Source: an uncultured Acidobacteriota bacterium (lineage in GTDB: Bacteria > Acidobacteriota > Terriglobia > Bryobacterales > UBA6623). From it: 64,000 nucleotides of DNA. The stretch covers positions 302,856 to 366,855 of the forward strand of contig CAWFOP010000007.1 of NCBI GenBank assembly GCA_963817465.1. Direction: 5' to 3'. Both the position numbers and the translations under genes were made by a program. This document shows, piece after piece, positions 33,734 to 40,501 of the stretch (its first letter is position 1; each line of letters starts with the position of its first letter). The notes beneath the pieces are model-generated. The model had not been told where the DNA came from and made no database searches. It worked only from the letters and a program-made list of their open reading frames with translations.

Positions 33734-34639
33734 TTATCCTCGTCCTGCCGGCTTCCGCGGTCCGCCTAGCGCCTCGAAGCCCGAGACTACATCGAACAGT
33801 TCCTCGTCGATACCGCTTTGACGCAGACCGTGGAACGCGGCGTGGAGATTCTCCAGCAGTTCATCGATGTTCTTGTCGGCGCGTTGCATCGCCGCGAGAC
33901 GGCTCGCGTTCTCGCTCGCCAGAGATCCGGCGCACGCCCGGAACAGGGATACGAAAAGATATTCGCGGATGAGCGCCCGCCATGTCGTCGTGCCGCCGCT
34001 CATGACCTCGGGCAAGTTTCTCGTCGGCCAGGGAAGCTCGGCCAACTTACGCCGCCAGTCTTCGTCCAGCGGCAGCAGTCTCTGACTAACGGGCGCATAG
34101 ACCGCCCCGGACATGGGGCGGTTGTAGAAGAGGTGGAGCTCGGTGACTTCGCCCTTGCTGTGGCGCGCCTCGCTCTCGACGAGAATCCGCCCGACGAGCG
34201 GGGTTATGGCCTGGACCGAGTTCGGGACGGGGAACAACCCGATTAGCGGCAGGCCCGTGTCGGCCAGCCGCGCCTGCACGCGCTCCCCGACGGCCCATAC
34301 CTCGGCTCTGGCCGGCAGGGCCGCCAGCGTCTTGACCGCATAGTCGGCCACCACGTCGTTGAACTGCCCCACCAGGCCCTGGTCGGAACCGAATACTACC
34401 GCGCCGATCGCAGCGCCGACTCTTTGCCCACCCTGTTGCGCGGCCAAGGGCGATCGATTGGCCCGGAAACATGCGCCTAAGCCCAACTCGACGGTGCGGT
34501 AGTAGTCGTCCAAGGCGAGCACCGATCTCTCGTATTGACCAATGCTCGAGGCGGCCACGGCCTTCATCGTGCGGACGACCGATTGGAGGTCGCCCGCCGC
34601 GCGGATCTTGCGGCGAAGGGTCGCCGTGGTGTCGCTCAT
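33734..34639 (-). CDS. atpG: N-ATPase gamma subunit
   Basis: TLRRKIRAAGDLQSVVRTMKAVAASS.. and a C-terminus ..ASRLAAMQRADKNIDELLENL. Last gene of the atpDCQRBEFAG order. Confidence 0.85.
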   Translation of the reverse strand: MSDTTATLRRKIRAAGDLQSVVRTMKAVAASSIGQYERSVLALDDYYRTVELGLGACFRANRSPLAAQQGGQRVGAAIGAVVFGSDQGLVGQFNDVVADYAVKTLAALPARAEVWAVGERVQARLADTGLPLIGLFPVPNSVQAITPLVGRILVESEARHSKGEVTELHLFYNRPMSGAVYAPVSQRLLPLDEDWRRKLAELPWPTRNLPEVMSGGTTTWRALIREYLFVSLFRACAGSLASENASRLAAMQRADKNIDELLENLHAAFHGLRQSGIDEELFDVVSGFEALGGPRKPAGRG

Positions 34640-36182
34640 GCCTTCTCCTCGGGCGCGGGTTGAGGCTGGAAGGGGGCAAGCGATTTGCGAGCAATTTCGA
34701 CGATGGCCGCCCGATCCGCATCGCTTAGTGATTCCGCCGTATTCAGTCGTTCGCGCACCTCGGCGGGGATATCCGCCGCCGCCTCGGAGAGGGCGCTCTC
34801 GGCGGCTTTCATGTGGTCAAGCGGCACCTGGTCGAAGAGCTCCGCGGTCAACGCCAGCAGCACGGCGATCTGCGCGGGCACGGAGACGGGAGCGAACTCC
34901 GGCTGCTTGAGGCAGGCGCGGATTCGCCGCCCGTGTTCGATCGTCTTGCGGGAGTCCTGATCCAAGCGCGCGCCGAACCGGGTAAAGGTTTCGAGCTCTT
35001 CAAACTGCGCGTAGGCAAGCTTGAGGTCGCCGGCCACCGCCCGGTAGGCGGCCTTTTGCGCCTTCCCCCCACGCGCGATACCGATCGGCCGACATCGACC
35101 GCGGGCAGCACGCCTAGTTCGAACAGCGACGGCGACAGATAGATCTGTCCGTCGGTGATCGAGATTAAGTTCGTAGGGATGTAGGCGGAGATGTTCTGCG
35201 CTTCGGTCTCGATGATGGGCAGCGCCGTGAGCGAGCCGCCGCCAAGCTCCGCGCGCAAATGGGTGGAGCGTTCGAGAAGGCGCGAGTGGATATAAAAAAT
35301 GTCACCGGGGAAGGCTTCGCGTCCGGGCGGGCGGCGCAGCAGCAAAGAGAGCTCGCGATAGGCGCGGGCGTGCTGCGTGAGGTCGTCGTAAACGATCAGC
35401 ACGTCGCGGCCCTCTTCCATAAACCGCTCGGCGATGCTGGTCGCCGCGTACGGGGCGATATAGGCAAGGCCGGGCGGATCATCGCCTTCGGCCACGACAA
35501 CCACGGTGTACTCCATCGCGCCCTTCTCCTTCAAGTTGGCCACGGCCTTGGCCACGGAGGAAGCGCGCTGCCCGATGGCGCAATAAACACACACGATGTC
35601 CTGGCCCTTCTGGTTCAGGATGGCGTCGATCGCGATGGCGGTTTTGCCCGTTTGCCTGTCGCCCAGAATCAACTCGCGCTGGCCGCGCCCAACGGGAATG
35701 AGCGCGTCAATTACTTTCAGACCTGTCTGAAGCGGCTCCGTGACGGGCGCACGATCCATGATTGGCGCGGCAGGACGTTCGATCGGCAGGCGCCCGCCGG
35801 CGGCCACAGGACCGTTGTCATCGAGCGGTCGGCTGAGCGGATCGATGACGCGTCCGAGCAGACCGCCTCCCACCGCCACATCCATGACCCTGCCCGTGCG
35901 CTCGACTTCATCGCCCGCATGCAGATGCGAATACTCGCCGAGCAGGACGACGTCGACGTCATCCTCATCGACGTTGAAGGCGATGCCGAACACGCCGCCG
36001 GGAAACTGAATCAGCTCCTCAAAGCCCACGCCGGGGAGGCCGGAGACCTTTGCAATGCCGGTCGAGACCGAAGTGATCGTTCCGACCTCGCGCAGCCCAA
36101 GCCGCGGAACAAACCCTTCGCGTACTTGGCGTAAGCCGCTAAACGCGCGGTCGAGATCGTTCTGGAGGCTCTCGGGTTCCAT
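34636..36182 (-). pseudogene. atpA: N-ATPase alpha subunit, frame broken at a G6 run (plus-strand C6 35065-35070) or assembly indel
   Basis: ORF 34848..36182 carries GDRQTGKT (Walker A) up to ..[12 protein letters not shown] and then goes out of frame. ORF 34636..35037 continues ..[17 protein letters not shown].. One additional G restores [19 protein letters not shown]. Confidence 0.85.
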
Positions 36183-36184
36183 GC

Positions 36185-38302: not shown

Positions 38303-38633
38303 TACCGTTCTCCTGTTCCTCTCGCATTTCCTTTTCTTCCTTCGCCACCCAATGCCAGGCGTTGAAACAACCGACCGCAAGGCCGACGATCAGCAGGGCC
38401 AGCGTCCACGAATGGCGCGATGGGTAGCGACCATCAAGCCAGATGCCAAGCGCCGCGCCAAGCAGCGTTGGAATCGTCACTGACCACCCGATAAGCCCCA
38501 TCATTCCCAAGCCGAACCAGACTCCCTGCGTCGGGTTGCGCCGCGCCTTGAGCTTACGCTCCGCCTTCGCGCCGACCTGCTCGCCGAGGGTAGGTCCGCC
38601 TTGCGGGGGTCTGCTGGGCGACCGCCTATTCAT
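38295..38633 (-). CDS. atpQ: N-ATPase accessory membrane protein AtpQ (AtpZ/AtpI-like)
   Basis: Internal ATG 38633. ..GVWFGLGMMGLIGWSVTIPTLLGAALGIWLD..WTLALLIVGLAVGCFNAW.. Overlaps its neighbours by 8 nt on each side. Confidence 0.7.
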   Translation of the reverse strand: MNRRSPSRPPQGGPTLGEQVGAKAERKLKARRNPTQGVWFGLGMMGLIGWSVTIPTLLGAALGIWLDGRYPSRHSWTLALLIVGLAVGCFNAWHWVAKEEKEMREEQENGNG

Positions 38634-39015
38634 GTTCCAAGCTCGCGAAGCGGTGGAGAAATCCAGACTCCAATTTCGCCATGACCGACCGTACGCTTTG
38701 CTCTTGCTCGTCCAGTGCGAGAAACTCCCGCTCCACCGCCTCGCGCAATTGGGCGAGGTCCGCCCCGCCCAGCCCTCGACGCACGGAGACAAGCACATTC
38801 GGACCGGTCTTGACGAGCACCCCTTCATCCACCGCCACGTAGGCCTCGCCCTCGCCTTGGGTTTCGTAGATCAAGATTCCCGGCGTGAGCGCCGCGACGC
38901 AGTCGAGCCGGTGCGGTAAGAGGCCAAACGAGCCTTCGCTCGTCTCCGCGACGATGCGCGACACGCCGGTCTTCTCGGCGAAGACCTCGAAGGGCAGCAG
39001 GACCTTAAGATTCAT
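38626..39015 (-). CDS. atpC: N-ATPase epsilon subunit
   Basis: [50 protein letters not shown].. The start at ATG 39015 overlaps the end of atpD. Confidence 0.8.
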
Positions 39016-40501
39016 CGATGGCGGCATCTGTAGCCTCCGGTTGAGGTTTCGCCTGGATCTCGGATTTGGCGGCGGCGGGCTTCTCCTTTCCTTTTGCCTC
39101 TTCCACCGTGCCAATCATGTAGAGCGCGCTCTCCGGGTAGTCTTTGAACTCGTCGCGTAGGATGCGCTCACAGCCGCCCAGCGCATCCTCGAGGCTGACG
39201 AGCTTCCCTTTGAGCCCGGTAAATTGCTCGGTTGTGAAGAAAGGCTGGGTGAGAAAGCGCTCCAGGCGGCGAGCGCGGGCGACTACCGCGCGGTCTTCGG
39301 GCGAAAGCTGCTCGAGACCGAGCATGGCAATGATGTCCTTGAGCTCCGCGTATTTCGCGAGCGTATTGCGGACCTCCCGCGCCAAGTCGTAGTGCCGTTC
39401 TCCAACAATGCCCGGCGTGGCCATCTTAGATCCGGATTGCAGCGGGTCGATGGCCGGATAGAGGCCCTCGCTCGCCCGCTTGCGCGAGAGCACGATGGAC
39501 GCGGAGAGGTGCGAGAAAGCATGCACGGCCGCAGGATCGGTGAAATCGTCGGCCGGCACGTACACCGCCTGGATTGACGTGATAGCGCCTGTGTCAGTGT
39601 TGGCGATGCGCTCTTCCAACCCGGAAAGCTCGGTTCCCATGGTGGCCTGATAGCCCAAACGGGACGGCATCTGTCCCATTAAGCCGGCGACCTCGGAGCC
39701 CGCCTGAATGAACCGGAAAATGTTGTCGATCAGCAGCAGCACGTCGCGGTGTTCGTCGTCTCGGAAATACTCAGCCATGGTCAGCGCGGCGTGCCCCACT
39801 CGGAAGCGACTGCCCGGCGGCTCGTTCATCTGGCCGAAGATCATCACCATGTCCGGTAGCACGCCGGCTTCCTTCATGTCGCGGTAGAGCTCCTCTCCTT
39901 CGCGGCAACGCTCGCCGATTCCGCAAAAGATGCTCACGCCCTGCTGGCGACCGACCATGTTGTGGATCATCTCGGTGAGCAACACGGTCTTGCCCACACC
40001 CGCGCCGCCAAACAGACCCGCCTTGCCCCCGCGCTCCAGCGGCGCGAGCACGTCGATGACCTTGATCCCGGTTTCAAATACTTCAGACTTGGTGGAACGC
40101 CGCGCCAACGGCGGCGGGGAGCGGTGCACGGAACGCCATTCGACGTCGGACAGAGCCCCTTCGCGGTCGATCGTGTTGCCGAACACGTCGAACATGCGGG
40201 AAAGAACTTGCTTGCCCACCGGCGCCTTCAGCGGCCCTCCGGTATCCTCCACCGCCATGCCTCGAGCGAGGCCTTGGGTAGGGGTCAACGCAATTCCACG
40301 CACCTGGTGCGCATCGAGTTGAGCCAGGACCTCCATGGCGATCTCGCCGTTCTTCGCGTGCAGCAAGGAGTAAATGGGCGGCAGGCGCGCCTCGAACCGG
40401 ATATCCACCACGCTGCCGCGCACTGAGACGACCGCGCCCTGATTCAAGACGCCCGCCTCGGCCTGCTGGTTCTGTAGTGTTGGTGAGAGTTCCGCTTCCA
40501 T
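39005..40501 (-). CDS. atpD: N-ATPase beta subunit
   Basis: GGAGVGKT Walker A, ..[10 protein letters not shown].., ..[11 protein letters not shown].. Start at ATG 40501 with GAGAGGAG upstream. Confidence 0.9.

What the first reader, a model, noticed from the sequence alone, without database searches (positions are those of the whole stretch)
33734..40501. Complete N-type ATPase operon (atpDCQRBEFAG) with a full Na+-binding c-subunit signature
The gene order is beta, epsilon, AtpQ, AtpR, a, c, b, alpha, gamma. There is no separate delta gene, and b is elongated with a delta-like C-terminus. This is the diagnostic arrangement of N-ATPases, which are described as laterally mobile second ATPase operons.

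The c subunit aligns with the Ilyobacter tartaricus Na+ site: AQQPD (Gln) and IESTAIY (Glu, Ser, Thr, Tyr). This predicts Na+ rather than H+ coupling, meaning an ATP-driven Na+ extrusion pump.
Basis: partly seen in the sequence, partly recalled or inferred. Interest (0 to 1): 0.55.

Follow-up and report, generated by a model that had tools for sequence, protein, structure and literature searches.

The report
Known N-type ATPase operon, alpha frameshifted

Summary
The nine-gene minus-strand operon at 33734-40501 is real and has the N-ATPase order atpDCQRBEFAG. All nine products exceed NCBI's curated cut-offs for "alternate F1F0 ATPase" subunits. AtpR, AtpQ and a b subunit with a delta-like C-terminus are present, and there is no delta gene.

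Two corrections are needed.
- The operon is not intact as sequenced. atpA is split by a one-base deletion in a G-run (G6 at 35065-35070, against G7 in the closest relative). The deposited assembly carries the same truncated product. An assembly error is more likely than a real pseudogene, but this cannot be settled here.
The residue aligned with I. tartaricus Gln32 is Glu (ALAEGK). The site is therefore E32/E65/S66/T67/Y70, the two-carboxylate Na+ motif of Fusobacterium nucleatum, which Dibrova et al. (2010) already describe for N-ATPases. The Na+ prediction survives but is untested.

Whether an F-type operon lies elsewhere in the genome could not be tested.

A by-product may be new. N-ATPase operons in many phyla sit next to phosphoketolase, PPK2, acetate kinase and glucan phosphorylase, as this one does.

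The parts
39005..40501 (-). atpD, N-type beta subunit (498 aa)
   Evidence: TIGR03305 'alternate F1F0 ATPase, F1 subunit beta', 884.5 bits against a cut-off of 752. The exact product is in the public collection on a 538,727-bp contig.
38626..39027 (-). atpC, epsilon (133 aa; overlaps the end of atpD by 23 nt)
   Evidence: PF02823. TIGR03166, 166.4 bits against 100.1. Length taken from the gene calls in L083 and L001.
38295..38633 (-). atpQ (gene 1), small membrane protein
   Evidence: PF09527, 5.9e-17. TIGR02230, 150.3 bits against 46.7.
37988..38302 (-). atpR, the N-ATPase-specific membrane subunit
   Evidence: PF12966, 1e-29. TIGR03165, 104.3 bits against 55.5. Two Arg residues are conserved in 100% and 97% of 68 homologues.
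37297..37998 (-). atpB, a subunit (233 aa)
   Evidence: TIGR03306, 378.1 bits against 302.1. Arg164 is invariant in 70 sequences, at the same number as the essential Arg164 of B. pseudomallei (PMC5376962).
36984..37265 (-). atpE, c subunit (93 aa, GTG start) with ion site E32/E65/S66/T67/Y70 (I. tartaricus numbering), loop QQPD and helix-1 motif TxAxAxAxG
   Evidence: TIGR03322, 162.1 bits against 130.85. Alignments to 3zk1 and 1yce. Column counts in 75 N-type c subunits.
36185..36979 (-). atpF, fusion of b with the C-terminal part of delta (264 aa)
   Evidence: PF00430 plus PF00213. TIGR03321, 325.7 bits against 224.7. PDB b chains match residues 7-155 and a delta chain matches 174-245.
34636..36182 (-). 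atpA, alpha, interrupted by a frameshift. Adding one base gives a 515-aa product.
   Evidence: The gene is split into a 444-aa ORF and a 133-aa ORF. The repaired product scores 917.9 bits on TIGR03324 against a cut-off of 750.5. It is 92-93% identical over its full length to intact 515-aa relatives.
35063..35070 (-). Frameshift site: G6A2 (GTGGGGGGAAGG)
   Evidence: L083 has G7A2, L001 has G6A3 and L002 has GGCGGCAAG, all in frame. The truncated 444-aa product is on record for the deposited contig.
33734..34639 (-). atpG, gamma (301 aa)
   Evidence: TIGR03323, 428 bits against 282.35.
40516..41385 (-). PPK2-type ADP-polyphosphate phosphotransferase. Its stop lies 14 nt before the atpD start, so it is probably co-transcribed.
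   Evidence: NF042973, 504 bits against 450. The same 13-14 nt spacing occurs in L001 and L083. PPK2 flanks the operon in 16-19 of 82-83 loci.
41520..43907 (-). Phosphoketolase (XFP)
   Evidence: Pfam XFP_N, XFP and XFP_C. NF003619, 1461.6 bits. It is the most frequent neighbour of N-ATPase operons: 23 of 82 loci by tblastn and 25 of 83 in the census.
43961..45743 (-). P1B-type P-type ATPase, split by a frameshift near 45065
   Evidence: The two overlapping ORFs cover TIGR01525 positions 2-187 and 205-559. There is one extra base relative to L052.
46360..47805 (-). Acetate kinase (domain from residue 86 of the ORF)
   Evidence: PF00871. TIGR00016, 371.5 bits against 293.4.
48407..51100 (-). 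Alpha-glucan phosphorylase
   Evidence: TIGR02094, 790.6 bits against 191.7.

Best explanation
This is a canonical N-type (alternate F1Fo) rotary ATPase operon, atpDCQRBEFAG. The host is an uncultured bacterium, probably Acidobacteriota of the order Bryobacterales.

Shown here:
- All nine subunits belong to the N-type families.
- AtpR carries its two conserved membrane arginines, and subunit a carries the essential stator arginine.
- The peripheral stalk is a b-delta fusion.
- The c subunit carries the family's two-carboxylate ion site (Glu32, Glu65, Ser66, Thr67, Tyr70). This is the same ligand set as the Na+-specific c-ring of Fusobacterium nucleatum.

Inferred:
- The enzyme binds Na+.
- It runs mainly in the ATP-hydrolysing direction, expelling Na+ (or H+ when Na+ is scarce) to keep up ion gradients and membrane potential.
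- It is probably co-transcribed with a PPK2 that makes ATP from ADP and polyphosphate.
- It lies in one same-strand cluster with phosphoketolase, acetate kinase and an alpha-glucan phosphorylase. This suggests the pump is fuelled by substrate-level ATP from storage polymers when respiration is limited.
- The one-base deletion in atpA is most likely a homopolymer miscall of a long-read metagenome assembly (about 60-70%) rather than a real inactivation.
For: Family membership:
- Gene order and Pfam domains.
- Every subunit is above the curated NCBIfam cut-off for the 'alternate F1F0 ATPase' models.
- 67 of 82 related loci from more than ten phyla carry all nine genes, all in the same order.
- AtpR R50 and R80 are conserved in 100% and 97% of homologues, and subunit a R164 in 100%.
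- The b subunit matches delta at its C-terminus.

Ion site:
- Alignments with 3zk1 and 1yce place the ligands.
- Of 75 N-type c subunits, 50 have EESTY and 25 have EES[ILV]Y. E32, E65, S66 and Y70 are invariant.
- PMC2881411 describes exactly this signature and argues for ATP-driven Na+ extrusion.

Energy-supply context:
- PPK2 is an ADP-polyphosphate phosphotransferase, and its stop is 14 nt from the atpD start.
- An unbiased census of neighbours finds XFP in 25 loci, PPK2 in 19, acetate kinase in 12 and glucan phosphorylase in 5, out of 83 loci.
- The chromosome II ATP synthase cluster of Burkholderia is induced in hypoxia and in persister cells (PMC4187911). PMC5376962 places the N-type operon on chromosome 2.

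Frameshift as an assembly error:
- The nearest relative has G7 where the window has G6.
- Relatives have intact 515-aa alphas at 90-93% identity.
- Other assemblies of this kind also carry isolated frameshifts, in XFP of L001 and in the P-type ATPase of L052.
- The source contig is 538,727 bp long and the record is a MAG-like deposit.
Against: - No biochemical data exist for this enzyme.
- The only N-type c-ring tested directly (B. pseudomallei) was predicted to bind Na+ and proved H+-selective (PMC5376962), although it has T and M in place of S66 and T67.
- Most related loci come from non-saline soils, peat and fens, judging by the record titles. The physiological ion there may be H+, and salt stress is not an obvious driver.
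- As sequenced, atpA cannot give a full alpha subunit, and a second ATPase gene 9 kb away is also frameshifted. That second frameshift is not in a homopolymer, which leaves real decay possible.
- Co-transcription and the direction of operation are inferred from gene spacing and neighbours only.
- The neighbour association may partly reflect joint lateral transfer of a larger island rather than many independent events.
Confidence: 0.72

Rival explanations
1. The enzyme is an N-ATPase, but in vivo it is coupled to protons, like the B. pseudomallei N-type enzyme. It would serve pH homeostasis or membrane-potential maintenance in acidic, low-sodium soil.
For: - The B. pseudomallei N-type c17 ring is H+-selective despite a Na+ prediction (PMC5376962).
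- Related loci come largely from soils, peat and fens (record titles).
- Dibrova et al. note that Na+ enzymes also pump H+ at low Na+.
Against: - The window's c subunit keeps Ser66 and Thr67, which B. pseudomallei has replaced by Thr and Met.
- The full E/ESTxxY set equals that of the Na+-specific F. nucleatum ring.
Confidence: 0.3
2. The operon is genuinely inactivated in this organism. The atpA frameshift, and the one in the neighbouring P1B ATPase, are real mutations, and the cluster is decaying.
For: - The deposited assembly carries the truncated 444-aa product.
- A second frameshift lies in the same gene cluster and is not in a homopolymer.
- The window also lacks the DUF2254 and His_Phos_1 genes that sit between XFP and PPK2 in its two closest relatives.
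Against: - The other eight atp genes are intact and 74-95% identical to those of relatives.
- The lesion is a single base in a G6/G7 run, the classic long-read error.
- Sister assemblies show comparable isolated frameshifts in other genes.
- No stop codons or further indels have accumulated in atpA.
Confidence: 0.3
3. The enzyme works mainly as an ATP synthase adapted to a very low ion-motive force, using a large c-ring with a high ion-to-ATP ratio. PPK2 would then store the product as polyphosphate.
For: - The helix-1 packing motif is alanine-rich (TxAxAxAxG), like the AxGxAxAxG motif of the c17 ring.
- F-type machines are reversible in principle.
- The A. halophytica enzyme was reported as a Na+-dependent ATP synthase (title cited in PMC5376962).
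Against: - Deleting the operon in M. acetivorans had no effect on growth or ATP synthesis, and N-ATPases always accompany a bona fide synthase (PMC2881411).
- The neighbours (phosphoketolase, acetate kinase, ADP-polyphosphate phosphotransferase) are ATP producers, which fits an ATP consumer better.
Confidence: 0.12
4. The break in atpA is bypassed by programmed -1 ribosomal frameshifting or transcriptional slippage at G GGG GGA.
For: A -1 slip at this site would restore the reading frame exactly. The heptamer formally fits the X XXY YYZ pattern.
Against: - All relatives examined are in frame at this site with different sequences: G7A2, G6A3 and GGCGGCAAG.
- From general knowledge, G-only heptamers are poor slippery sites.
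- No conserved downstream structure was sought or seen.
Confidence: 0.02
5. This is the organism's only rotary ATPase and serves as its housekeeping ATP synthase.
For: Nothing positive. The window holds no second atp operon, but it covers only 64 kb.
Against: - In all complete genomes analysed by Dibrova et al., N-ATPases are second copies.
- A frameshifted alpha in a sole ATP synthase would be very unlikely to persist.
Confidence: 0.03

Closest known systems
N-ATPase / 'alternate F1F0 ATPase' (Dibrova, Galperin & Mulkidjanian 2010, PMC2881411; TIGR03305, 03166, 02230, 03165, 03306, 03322, 03321, 03324, 03323)
   Same: - Identical gene order.
- AtpR with two membrane arginines, and AtpQ.
- No delta gene, and a b-delta fusion.
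- A c subunit with Glu in both helices plus ESTxxY.
- Alpha about 80% identical across phyla.
   Different: - atpA is frameshifted in this assembly.
- The host is a probable soil Bryobacterales rather than a marine or halotolerant organism.
- 'Second copy' status is untested.
Burkholderia pseudomallei N-type ATPase (c17 ring, H+-selective; PMC5376962)
   Same: - Same operon type.
- A second Glu in helix 1.
- Essential Arg164 in subunit a.
- An alanine-rich helix-1 packing motif.
   Different: - The window has Ser-Thr after the key Glu (ESTxxY), where B. pseudomallei has Thr-Met.
- The loop is QQPD here and in all 75 relatives sampled, against RQPD as stated for B. pseudomallei.
Fusobacterium nucleatum F-type Na+ ATP synthase c-ring (PDB 3zk1/3zk2; two-carboxylate motif)
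   Same: The same five ion-site residues (E32, E65, S66, T67, Y70) at aligned positions.
   Different: - It is a housekeeping F-type synthase with a GxGxGxGxG helix-1 motif and an RQP loop.
- It is only a distant homologue (55.7 bits).
Ilyobacter tartaricus Na+ F-ATP synthase c11 ring (PDB 1yce)
   Same: E65, S66, T67 and Y70 are aligned and conserved.
   Different: Position 32 is Gln in I. tartaricus and Glu here.

Membership tests
N-ATPase (alternate F1Fo ATPase) | Operon order atpD-C-Q-R-B-E-F-A-G | tested here: met
   ORF map and domains. The same order occurs in 67 of 67 complete related loci.
N-ATPase (alternate F1Fo ATPase) | Presence of AtpR (PF12966/TIGR03165) with two conserved membrane Arg residues | tested here: met
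   PF12966 at 1e-29. TIGR03165 at 104.3 bits against 55.5. R50 and R80 are conserved in 100% and 97% of 68 sequences.
N-ATPase (alternate F1Fo ATPase) | AtpQ (PF09527/TIGR02230) in place of AtpI | tested here: met
N-ATPase (alternate F1Fo ATPase) | No delta gene, and an elongated b subunit with a delta-like C-terminus | tested here: met
   PF00430 plus PF00213. TIGR03321. A PDB delta chain matches residues 174-245. There is no OSCP ORF elsewhere in the operon.
N-ATPase (alternate F1Fo ATPase) | Catalytic and rotor subunits group with N-type rather than F-type sequences | tested here: met
   The N-type 'exception' models outscore the F-type models for beta, alpha, gamma, a, b and c, and all exceed their cut-offs. 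Relatives named 'alternate F1F0 ATPase' are 83-92% identical. No tree was built.
N-ATPase (alternate F1Fo ATPase) | c subunit with Glu in both helices plus the ES(T)xxY motif | tested here: met
N-ATPase (alternate F1Fo ATPase) | Always a second rotary ATPase, beside an F- or A-type operon in the same genome | not testable with these tools
   The window holds only this operon. The source contig (538,727 bp) is in the protein collection but not in the gene-position index.
   atpA has a 1-nt deletion at 35063-35070. Whether this is an error or a real mutation is unresolved.
Na+-binding c-rings (I. tartaricus / F. nucleatum type) | Full ligand set at aligned positions 32, 65, 66, 67 and 70 | tested here: met
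   E, E, S, T and Y by MAFFT and phmmer alignment to 1yce and 3zk1. Position 32 is Glu (F. nucleatum type), not the Gln claimed.
Na+-binding c-rings (I. tartaricus / F. nucleatum type) | Demonstrated Na+ dependence or Na+ protection of the carboxylate | not testable with these tools
   This needs biochemistry. The B. pseudomallei precedent shows that prediction can fail.

The most novel reading that the evidence does not exclude
N-ATPase operons may be the ion-pumping end of a conserved, laterally spread 'energy maintenance' module. In this reading, storage polymers are converted to ATP by substrate-level reactions. Glycogen would pass through alpha-glucan phosphorylase, transaldolase, phosphoketolase and acetate kinase, and polyphosphate through PPK2. 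That ATP would be spent by the N-ATPase, and by co-located P-type ATPases, to hold membrane potential and ion gradients when respiration stops. This would explain why a 'sodium pump' is so common in non-saline soils, peat and fens, and why the Burkholderia N-type cluster is induced by hypoxia. No paper in the searchable library links N-ATPase with phosphoketolase or PPK2.
Probability: 0.35. Interest if true: 0.55.

Novelty: new member of a known kind. Interest (0 to 1): 0.2.

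Why it matters
The operon adds nothing new in kind. The family, its gene order, its two-glutamate c subunit and its lateral spread were described in 2010, and NCBI annotates them automatically.

Three things are worth keeping:
- A correction of method. The conserved loop (R/Q)QP must not be mistaken for the helix-1 Gln/Glu ligand when ion specificity is read from c subunits.
- A warning. 'Complete operon' claims from raw sequence need a frame check.
- A comparative observation. N-ATPase operons across many phyla are physically linked to PPK2, phosphoketolase and acetate kinase. 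If it holds up, this points to a role in surviving respiratory arrest rather than in salt tolerance.

No N-ATPase holoenzyme structure containing AtpR was found in the Protein Data Bank copy, so the roles of AtpR and AtpQ remain open.

Tried and rejected
- **Finding the source genome, to look for an F-type operon.** Exact-product look-ups of b, c, a, beta and the 100%-identical malic enzyme P0121 in the gene-position index all failed. Yet the exact proteins are in the protein collection on a 538,727-bp NCBI/ENA contig, without accession numbers. The 'second operon' question therefore stays open.
- **GC3 frame-plot scan for frameshifts**. It flagged only atpA and the P1B ATPase as large-overlap cases in the window. 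A control on related loci showed that it misses known frameshifts (XFP of L001, P-type ATPase of L052) and flags normal gene junctions. I therefore draw no conclusion about frameshift density or clustering.
- **Promoter and terminator consensus scan**. Counts did not exceed those of shuffled sequence. It was uninformative.
- **Rfam and tRNA scans of the window**. Nothing was found, so there is no riboswitch or tRNA-linked island boundary.
- **The Burkholderia cenocepacia lxa low-oxygen locus as a precedent**. It holds acetate kinase, a cation ATPase and a pfkB kinase, but no N-ATPase or phosphoketolase. It is only a loose analogy.
- **Programmed frameshifting at the G-run.** Considered and rejected, because relatives are in frame with different sequences at the site.

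Full report
**What is there.**
The ORF map shows nine consecutive minus-strand genes between 33734 and 40501. Pfam assigns them as follows:
- 39005-40501: beta (PF02874, PF00006).
- 38626-39027: epsilon (PF02823).
- 38295-38633: ATPase_gene1/AtpQ (PF09527).
- 37988-38302: AtpR (PF12966, E 1e-29).
- 37297-37998: subunit a (PF00119).
- 36984-37265: subunit c (PF00137).
- 36185-36979: subunit b with an added OSCP/delta match at residues 179-244 (PF00430 plus PF00213).
- 34636-36182: alpha.
- 33734-34639: gamma (PF00231).

Every product exceeds the curated cut-off of NCBI's dedicated 'alternate F1F0 ATPase' models:

| Subunit | Model | Bits | Cut-off |
|---|---|---|---|
| beta | TIGR03305 | 884.5 | 752 |
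| epsilon | TIGR03166 | 166.4 | 100.1 |
| AtpQ | TIGR02230 | 150.3 | 46.7 |
| AtpR | TIGR03165 | 104.3 | 55.5 |
| a | TIGR03306 | 378.1 | 302.1 |
| c | TIGR03322 | 162.1 | 130.85 |
| b | TIGR03321 | 325.7 | 224.7 |
| alpha (repaired) | TIGR03324 | 917.9 | 750.5 |
| gamma | TIGR03323 | 428 | 282.35 |

The C-terminus of b also matches a solved delta subunit (9itj_S, residues 174-245 of b), while residues 7-155 match solved b subunits. The exact beta (start at 40501), b, a and gamma products are those called on the public assembly.

**First correction: the operon is not intact as sequenced.**
The alpha gene appears as two ORFs in different frames. One is 34848-36182 (444 aa, N-terminal and nucleotide-binding domains followed by out-of-frame residues). 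The other is 34636-35037 (the C-terminal domain, PF00306).

The minus-strand sequence reads GTGGGGGGAAGGCGCAAAAGG. Adding one base restores a 515-aa protein with ...[21 protein letters not shown].... This protein is 92% identical over 100% of its length to intact 515-aa proteins.

The three closest relatives are all in frame at this site:
- L083 (alpha 93% identical, DNA 90%): G7A2.
- L001: G6A3.
- L002: GGCGGCAAG.

The window's G6A2 (35063-35070) is thus one base short. The truncated 444-aa product is itself on record for a 538,727-bp NCBI/ENA contig, so the lesion is in the deposit and was not introduced into the window.

The site is a homopolymer, and the other eight genes are intact and 74-95% identical to L083. 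Sister assemblies show isolated frameshifts in other genes: XFP in L001 and the P-type ATPase in L052. I therefore rate an assembly error at about 60-70% and a real inactivating mutation at about 30%.

A second frameshift in the window splits a P1B-type ATPase about 9 kb away, near 45065. It is not in a homopolymer, which keeps the pseudogene reading alive. My attempt to measure frameshift density with a GC3 frame plot failed its control and is not used.

**Second correction: the ion site.**
I used three alignments:
- phmmer against the F. nucleatum c chain 3zk1;
- column counts in 75 N-type c subunits.

All three show that AQQPD is the cytoplasmic loop, aligned with R45-Q46-P47-E48. The ligand position 32 lies in helix 1 (I. 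tartaricus GVGQGYAAGK). There the window has Glu (ALAEGKAVAS). 'IESTAIY' does align with E65, S66, T67 and Y70.

The site is therefore E32/E65/S66/T67/Y70, the same residues as in the F. nucleatum c chain 3zk1. Papers cited in PMC5376962 describe that ring as a Na+-driven rotor with a two-carboxylate motif.

This is not new. Dibrova et al. (PMC2881411) state that nearly all N-ATPase c subunits carry Glu in place of the Na+-coordinating Gln together with ESTxxY.

In my sample of 75 N-type c subunits, E32, the QQPD loop, M63, E65, S66 and Y70 are invariant. Position 67 is Thr in 50 and Ile, Leu or Val in 25. The window belongs to the majority, full-ligand class.

The Na+ prediction therefore stands on corrected grounds but remains a prediction. 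The B. pseudomallei N-type ring (E30, E61, T62, M63, Y66) was predicted to bind Na+ and was found H+-selective, with 17 subunits (PMC5376962).

The window's helix-1 packing motif is TxAxAxAxG, against GxGxGxGxG in I. tartaricus. By the argument in that paper, this suggests a large ring. That is inference only.

**Other family features.**
- AtpR has two arginines conserved in 100% and 97% of 68 homologues, as described for the family.
- Subunit a has an invariant Arg164, the number given for the essential arginine in B. pseudomallei.
- No solved structure contains an AtpR homologue.

**Relatives and spread.**
One scan of species-representative genomes returned 80 loci with alpha 76-84% identical. 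They come from Acidobacteriota, Verrucomicrobiota, Chloroflexota, Planctomycetota, Nitrospirota, Myxococcota, Bdellovibrionota, Desulfobacterota, Alpha-, Beta- and Gammaproteobacteria, and a Methanosarcinaceae archaeon.

All 67 loci that hold the nine genes have them in the same order. By contrast, the window's malic enzyme is only 72-82% identical even to its best non-self hits, several of which are named Bryobacterales or Bryobacteraceae. This places the host and shows how unusually conserved, or laterally spread, the ATPase is.

AtpR homologues occur on five PLSDB plasmids.

Inside the window there is no sign of recent acquisition. GC content is unremarkable, there are no tRNAs, there are no Rfam hits, and no integrase appeared among the larger ORFs scanned against Pfam. 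The rest of the window looks chromosomal, with a sigma-54 activator, malic enzyme, glycosyltransferases and a PSCyt/PSD1 protein.

**Could not be tested.**
Whether an F-type operon exists elsewhere in the genome remains open. The window has only this one. The source contig could not be fetched.

**Context and likely function.**
Upstream on the same strand lie, in order:
- an alpha-glucan phosphorylase (48407-51100);
- a HAD phosphatase (47580-48230);
- acetate kinase (46360-47805);
- a small membrane ORF;
- the frameshifted P1B ATPase (43961-45743);
- phosphoketolase (41520-43907);
- a PPK2 identified as an ADP-polyphosphate phosphotransferase (NF042973, 504 bits against 450), whose stop codon lies 14 nt before the atpD start.

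The same 13-14 nt PPK2-atpD spacing is seen in L001 and L083.

An unbiased clustering of all flank ORFs in 83 loci gave the following recurrent neighbours, almost always on the same strand:

| Neighbour | Loci (of 83) |
|---|---|
| Phosphoketolase | 25 |
| PPK2 | 19 |
| DUF2254 membrane protein | 14 |
| Acetate kinase | 12 |
| P2-type cation ATPase | 10 |
| Tandem STAS protein | 8 |
| PRC-barrel protein | 7 |
| His_Phos_1 | 6 |
| P1B ATPase | 6 |
| Glucan phosphorylase | 5 |
| Transaldolase | 4 |

PPK2 sits either directly before atpD or directly after atpG. These neighbours are ATP producers, which fits the published view that N-ATPases consume ATP to pump ions.

In Burkholderia, the chromosome II ATP synthase cluster is induced in hypoxia and in persister cells, while the chromosome I cluster is repressed (PMC4187911). 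PMC5376962 places the N-type operon on chromosome 2.

I therefore favour the following reading. The N-ATPase is an ATP-driven Na+ (or H+) pump that maintains ion gradients when respiration is limited, fed by glycogen- and polyphosphate-derived ATP. This step is inference. The association may also partly reflect co-transfer of a larger island. Literature searches found no paper linking N-ATPase with phosphoketolase or PPK2, but the library is incomplete.

**Verdict.**
This is a correct family call on an already well-described system, with two factual errors: 'complete', and the Gln ligand. It is a new member of a known kind and of low interest in itself. The neighbourhood observation is the only part that might lead somewhere new.

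Noticed in passing
window 40516-51100 (minus strand); loci L001-L083: N-ATPase operons in many phyla are flanked on the same strand by phosphoketolase (25 of 83 loci), PPK2 (19), DUF2254 (14), acetate kinase (12), P2-type cation ATPases (10), STAS (8) and PRC-barrel (7) proteins, glucan phosphorylase (5) and transaldolase (4). PPK2 lies directly before atpD or directly after atpG. No paper in the library links these genes to N-ATPase.
   Followed up: partly
window 43961-45743 (minus strand), break near 45065: A short P1B-type P-type ATPase without N-terminal metal-binding domains is split by a frameshift. It has one extra base relative to L052, in GCTGCTC, which is not a homopolymer. The two pieces cover TIGR01525 positions 2-187 and 205-559.
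   Followed up: partly
window 41386-41519, compared with L083 2765-4738 and L001 3030-4804: The two closest relatives carry DUF2254 and His_Phos_1 genes (about 2 kb) between phosphoketolase and PPK2. The window has only a 134-nt spacer there, so this is a deletion here or an insertion in the relatives.
   Followed up: partly
window 45967-46215 (minus strand): A small ORF ends in a very hydrophobic, glycine-rich peptide (MLLLIVILVLLFGVGGGYYGHSRWGPSGGAGTGVGTVLVILLIAYMLGVFH). It lies in the 600-nt gap between acetate kinase and the P-type ATPase and may encode a small membrane protein.
   Followed up: no
L052 11853-13451; also L004, L011, L019, L072, L073, L076: Eleven of 67 complete N-ATPase operons span more than 7.6 kb. 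In those I checked, the extra DNA lies between atpA and atpG or between atpF and atpA. In L052 the insert is a P1B ATPase 76-81% identical to the window's, and it is itself frameshifted.
   Followed up: no
L015 and L031 (both contigs of the Luteolibacter sp. MAG JBDTNJ01): One MAG carries two different N-type alpha genes, 81% and 79% identical to the query. This means either two N-ATPase operons in one genome or a mixed bin.
   Followed up: no
c subunits of the window and 74 loci (alignment): The loop motif is invariantly QQPD. The arginine of the F-type RQP loop, which B. pseudomallei is reported to keep as RQPD, is glutamine in all 75 sequences. Met63 and Ala68 are also invariant.
   Followed up: partly
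L001 356-2733: In the relative GCA_942491025.1 the phosphoketolase gene is split into two calls (XFP_N, and XFP plus XFP_C). This is another isolated frameshift in a sister assembly, which bears on how to read the one in atpA.
   Followed up: no
window 20996-33675: The region holds two GH130 (beta-mannoside phosphorylase-like) genes, several GT4 glycosyltransferases, a PIG-L deacetylase and a GH100/GDE-like hydrolase. It may be a locus for making and recycling a mannosyl compound or compatible solute, directly downstream of atpG on the opposite strand.
   Followed up: no
window 57036-59936 (minus strand): A large protein with PSCyt1, PSCyt2 and PSD1 domains (DUF1549/DUF1553). From general knowledge, this architecture is typical of Planctomycetes, Verrucomicrobia and Solibacter-like Acidobacteria. 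That fits the Bryobacterales placement suggested by the malic enzyme hits.
   Followed up: no
PLSDB plasmids NZ_CP019604.1, CP014769.1, NZ_CP080242.1, NZ_CP081849.1, NZ_CP082853.1: AtpR homologues (42-57% identical) lie on plasmids of Croceicoccus, Hymenobacter, Polymorphobacter and Legionella anisa. They are annotated as 'ATP synthase subunit I' or 'hypothetical protein'.
   Followed up: no
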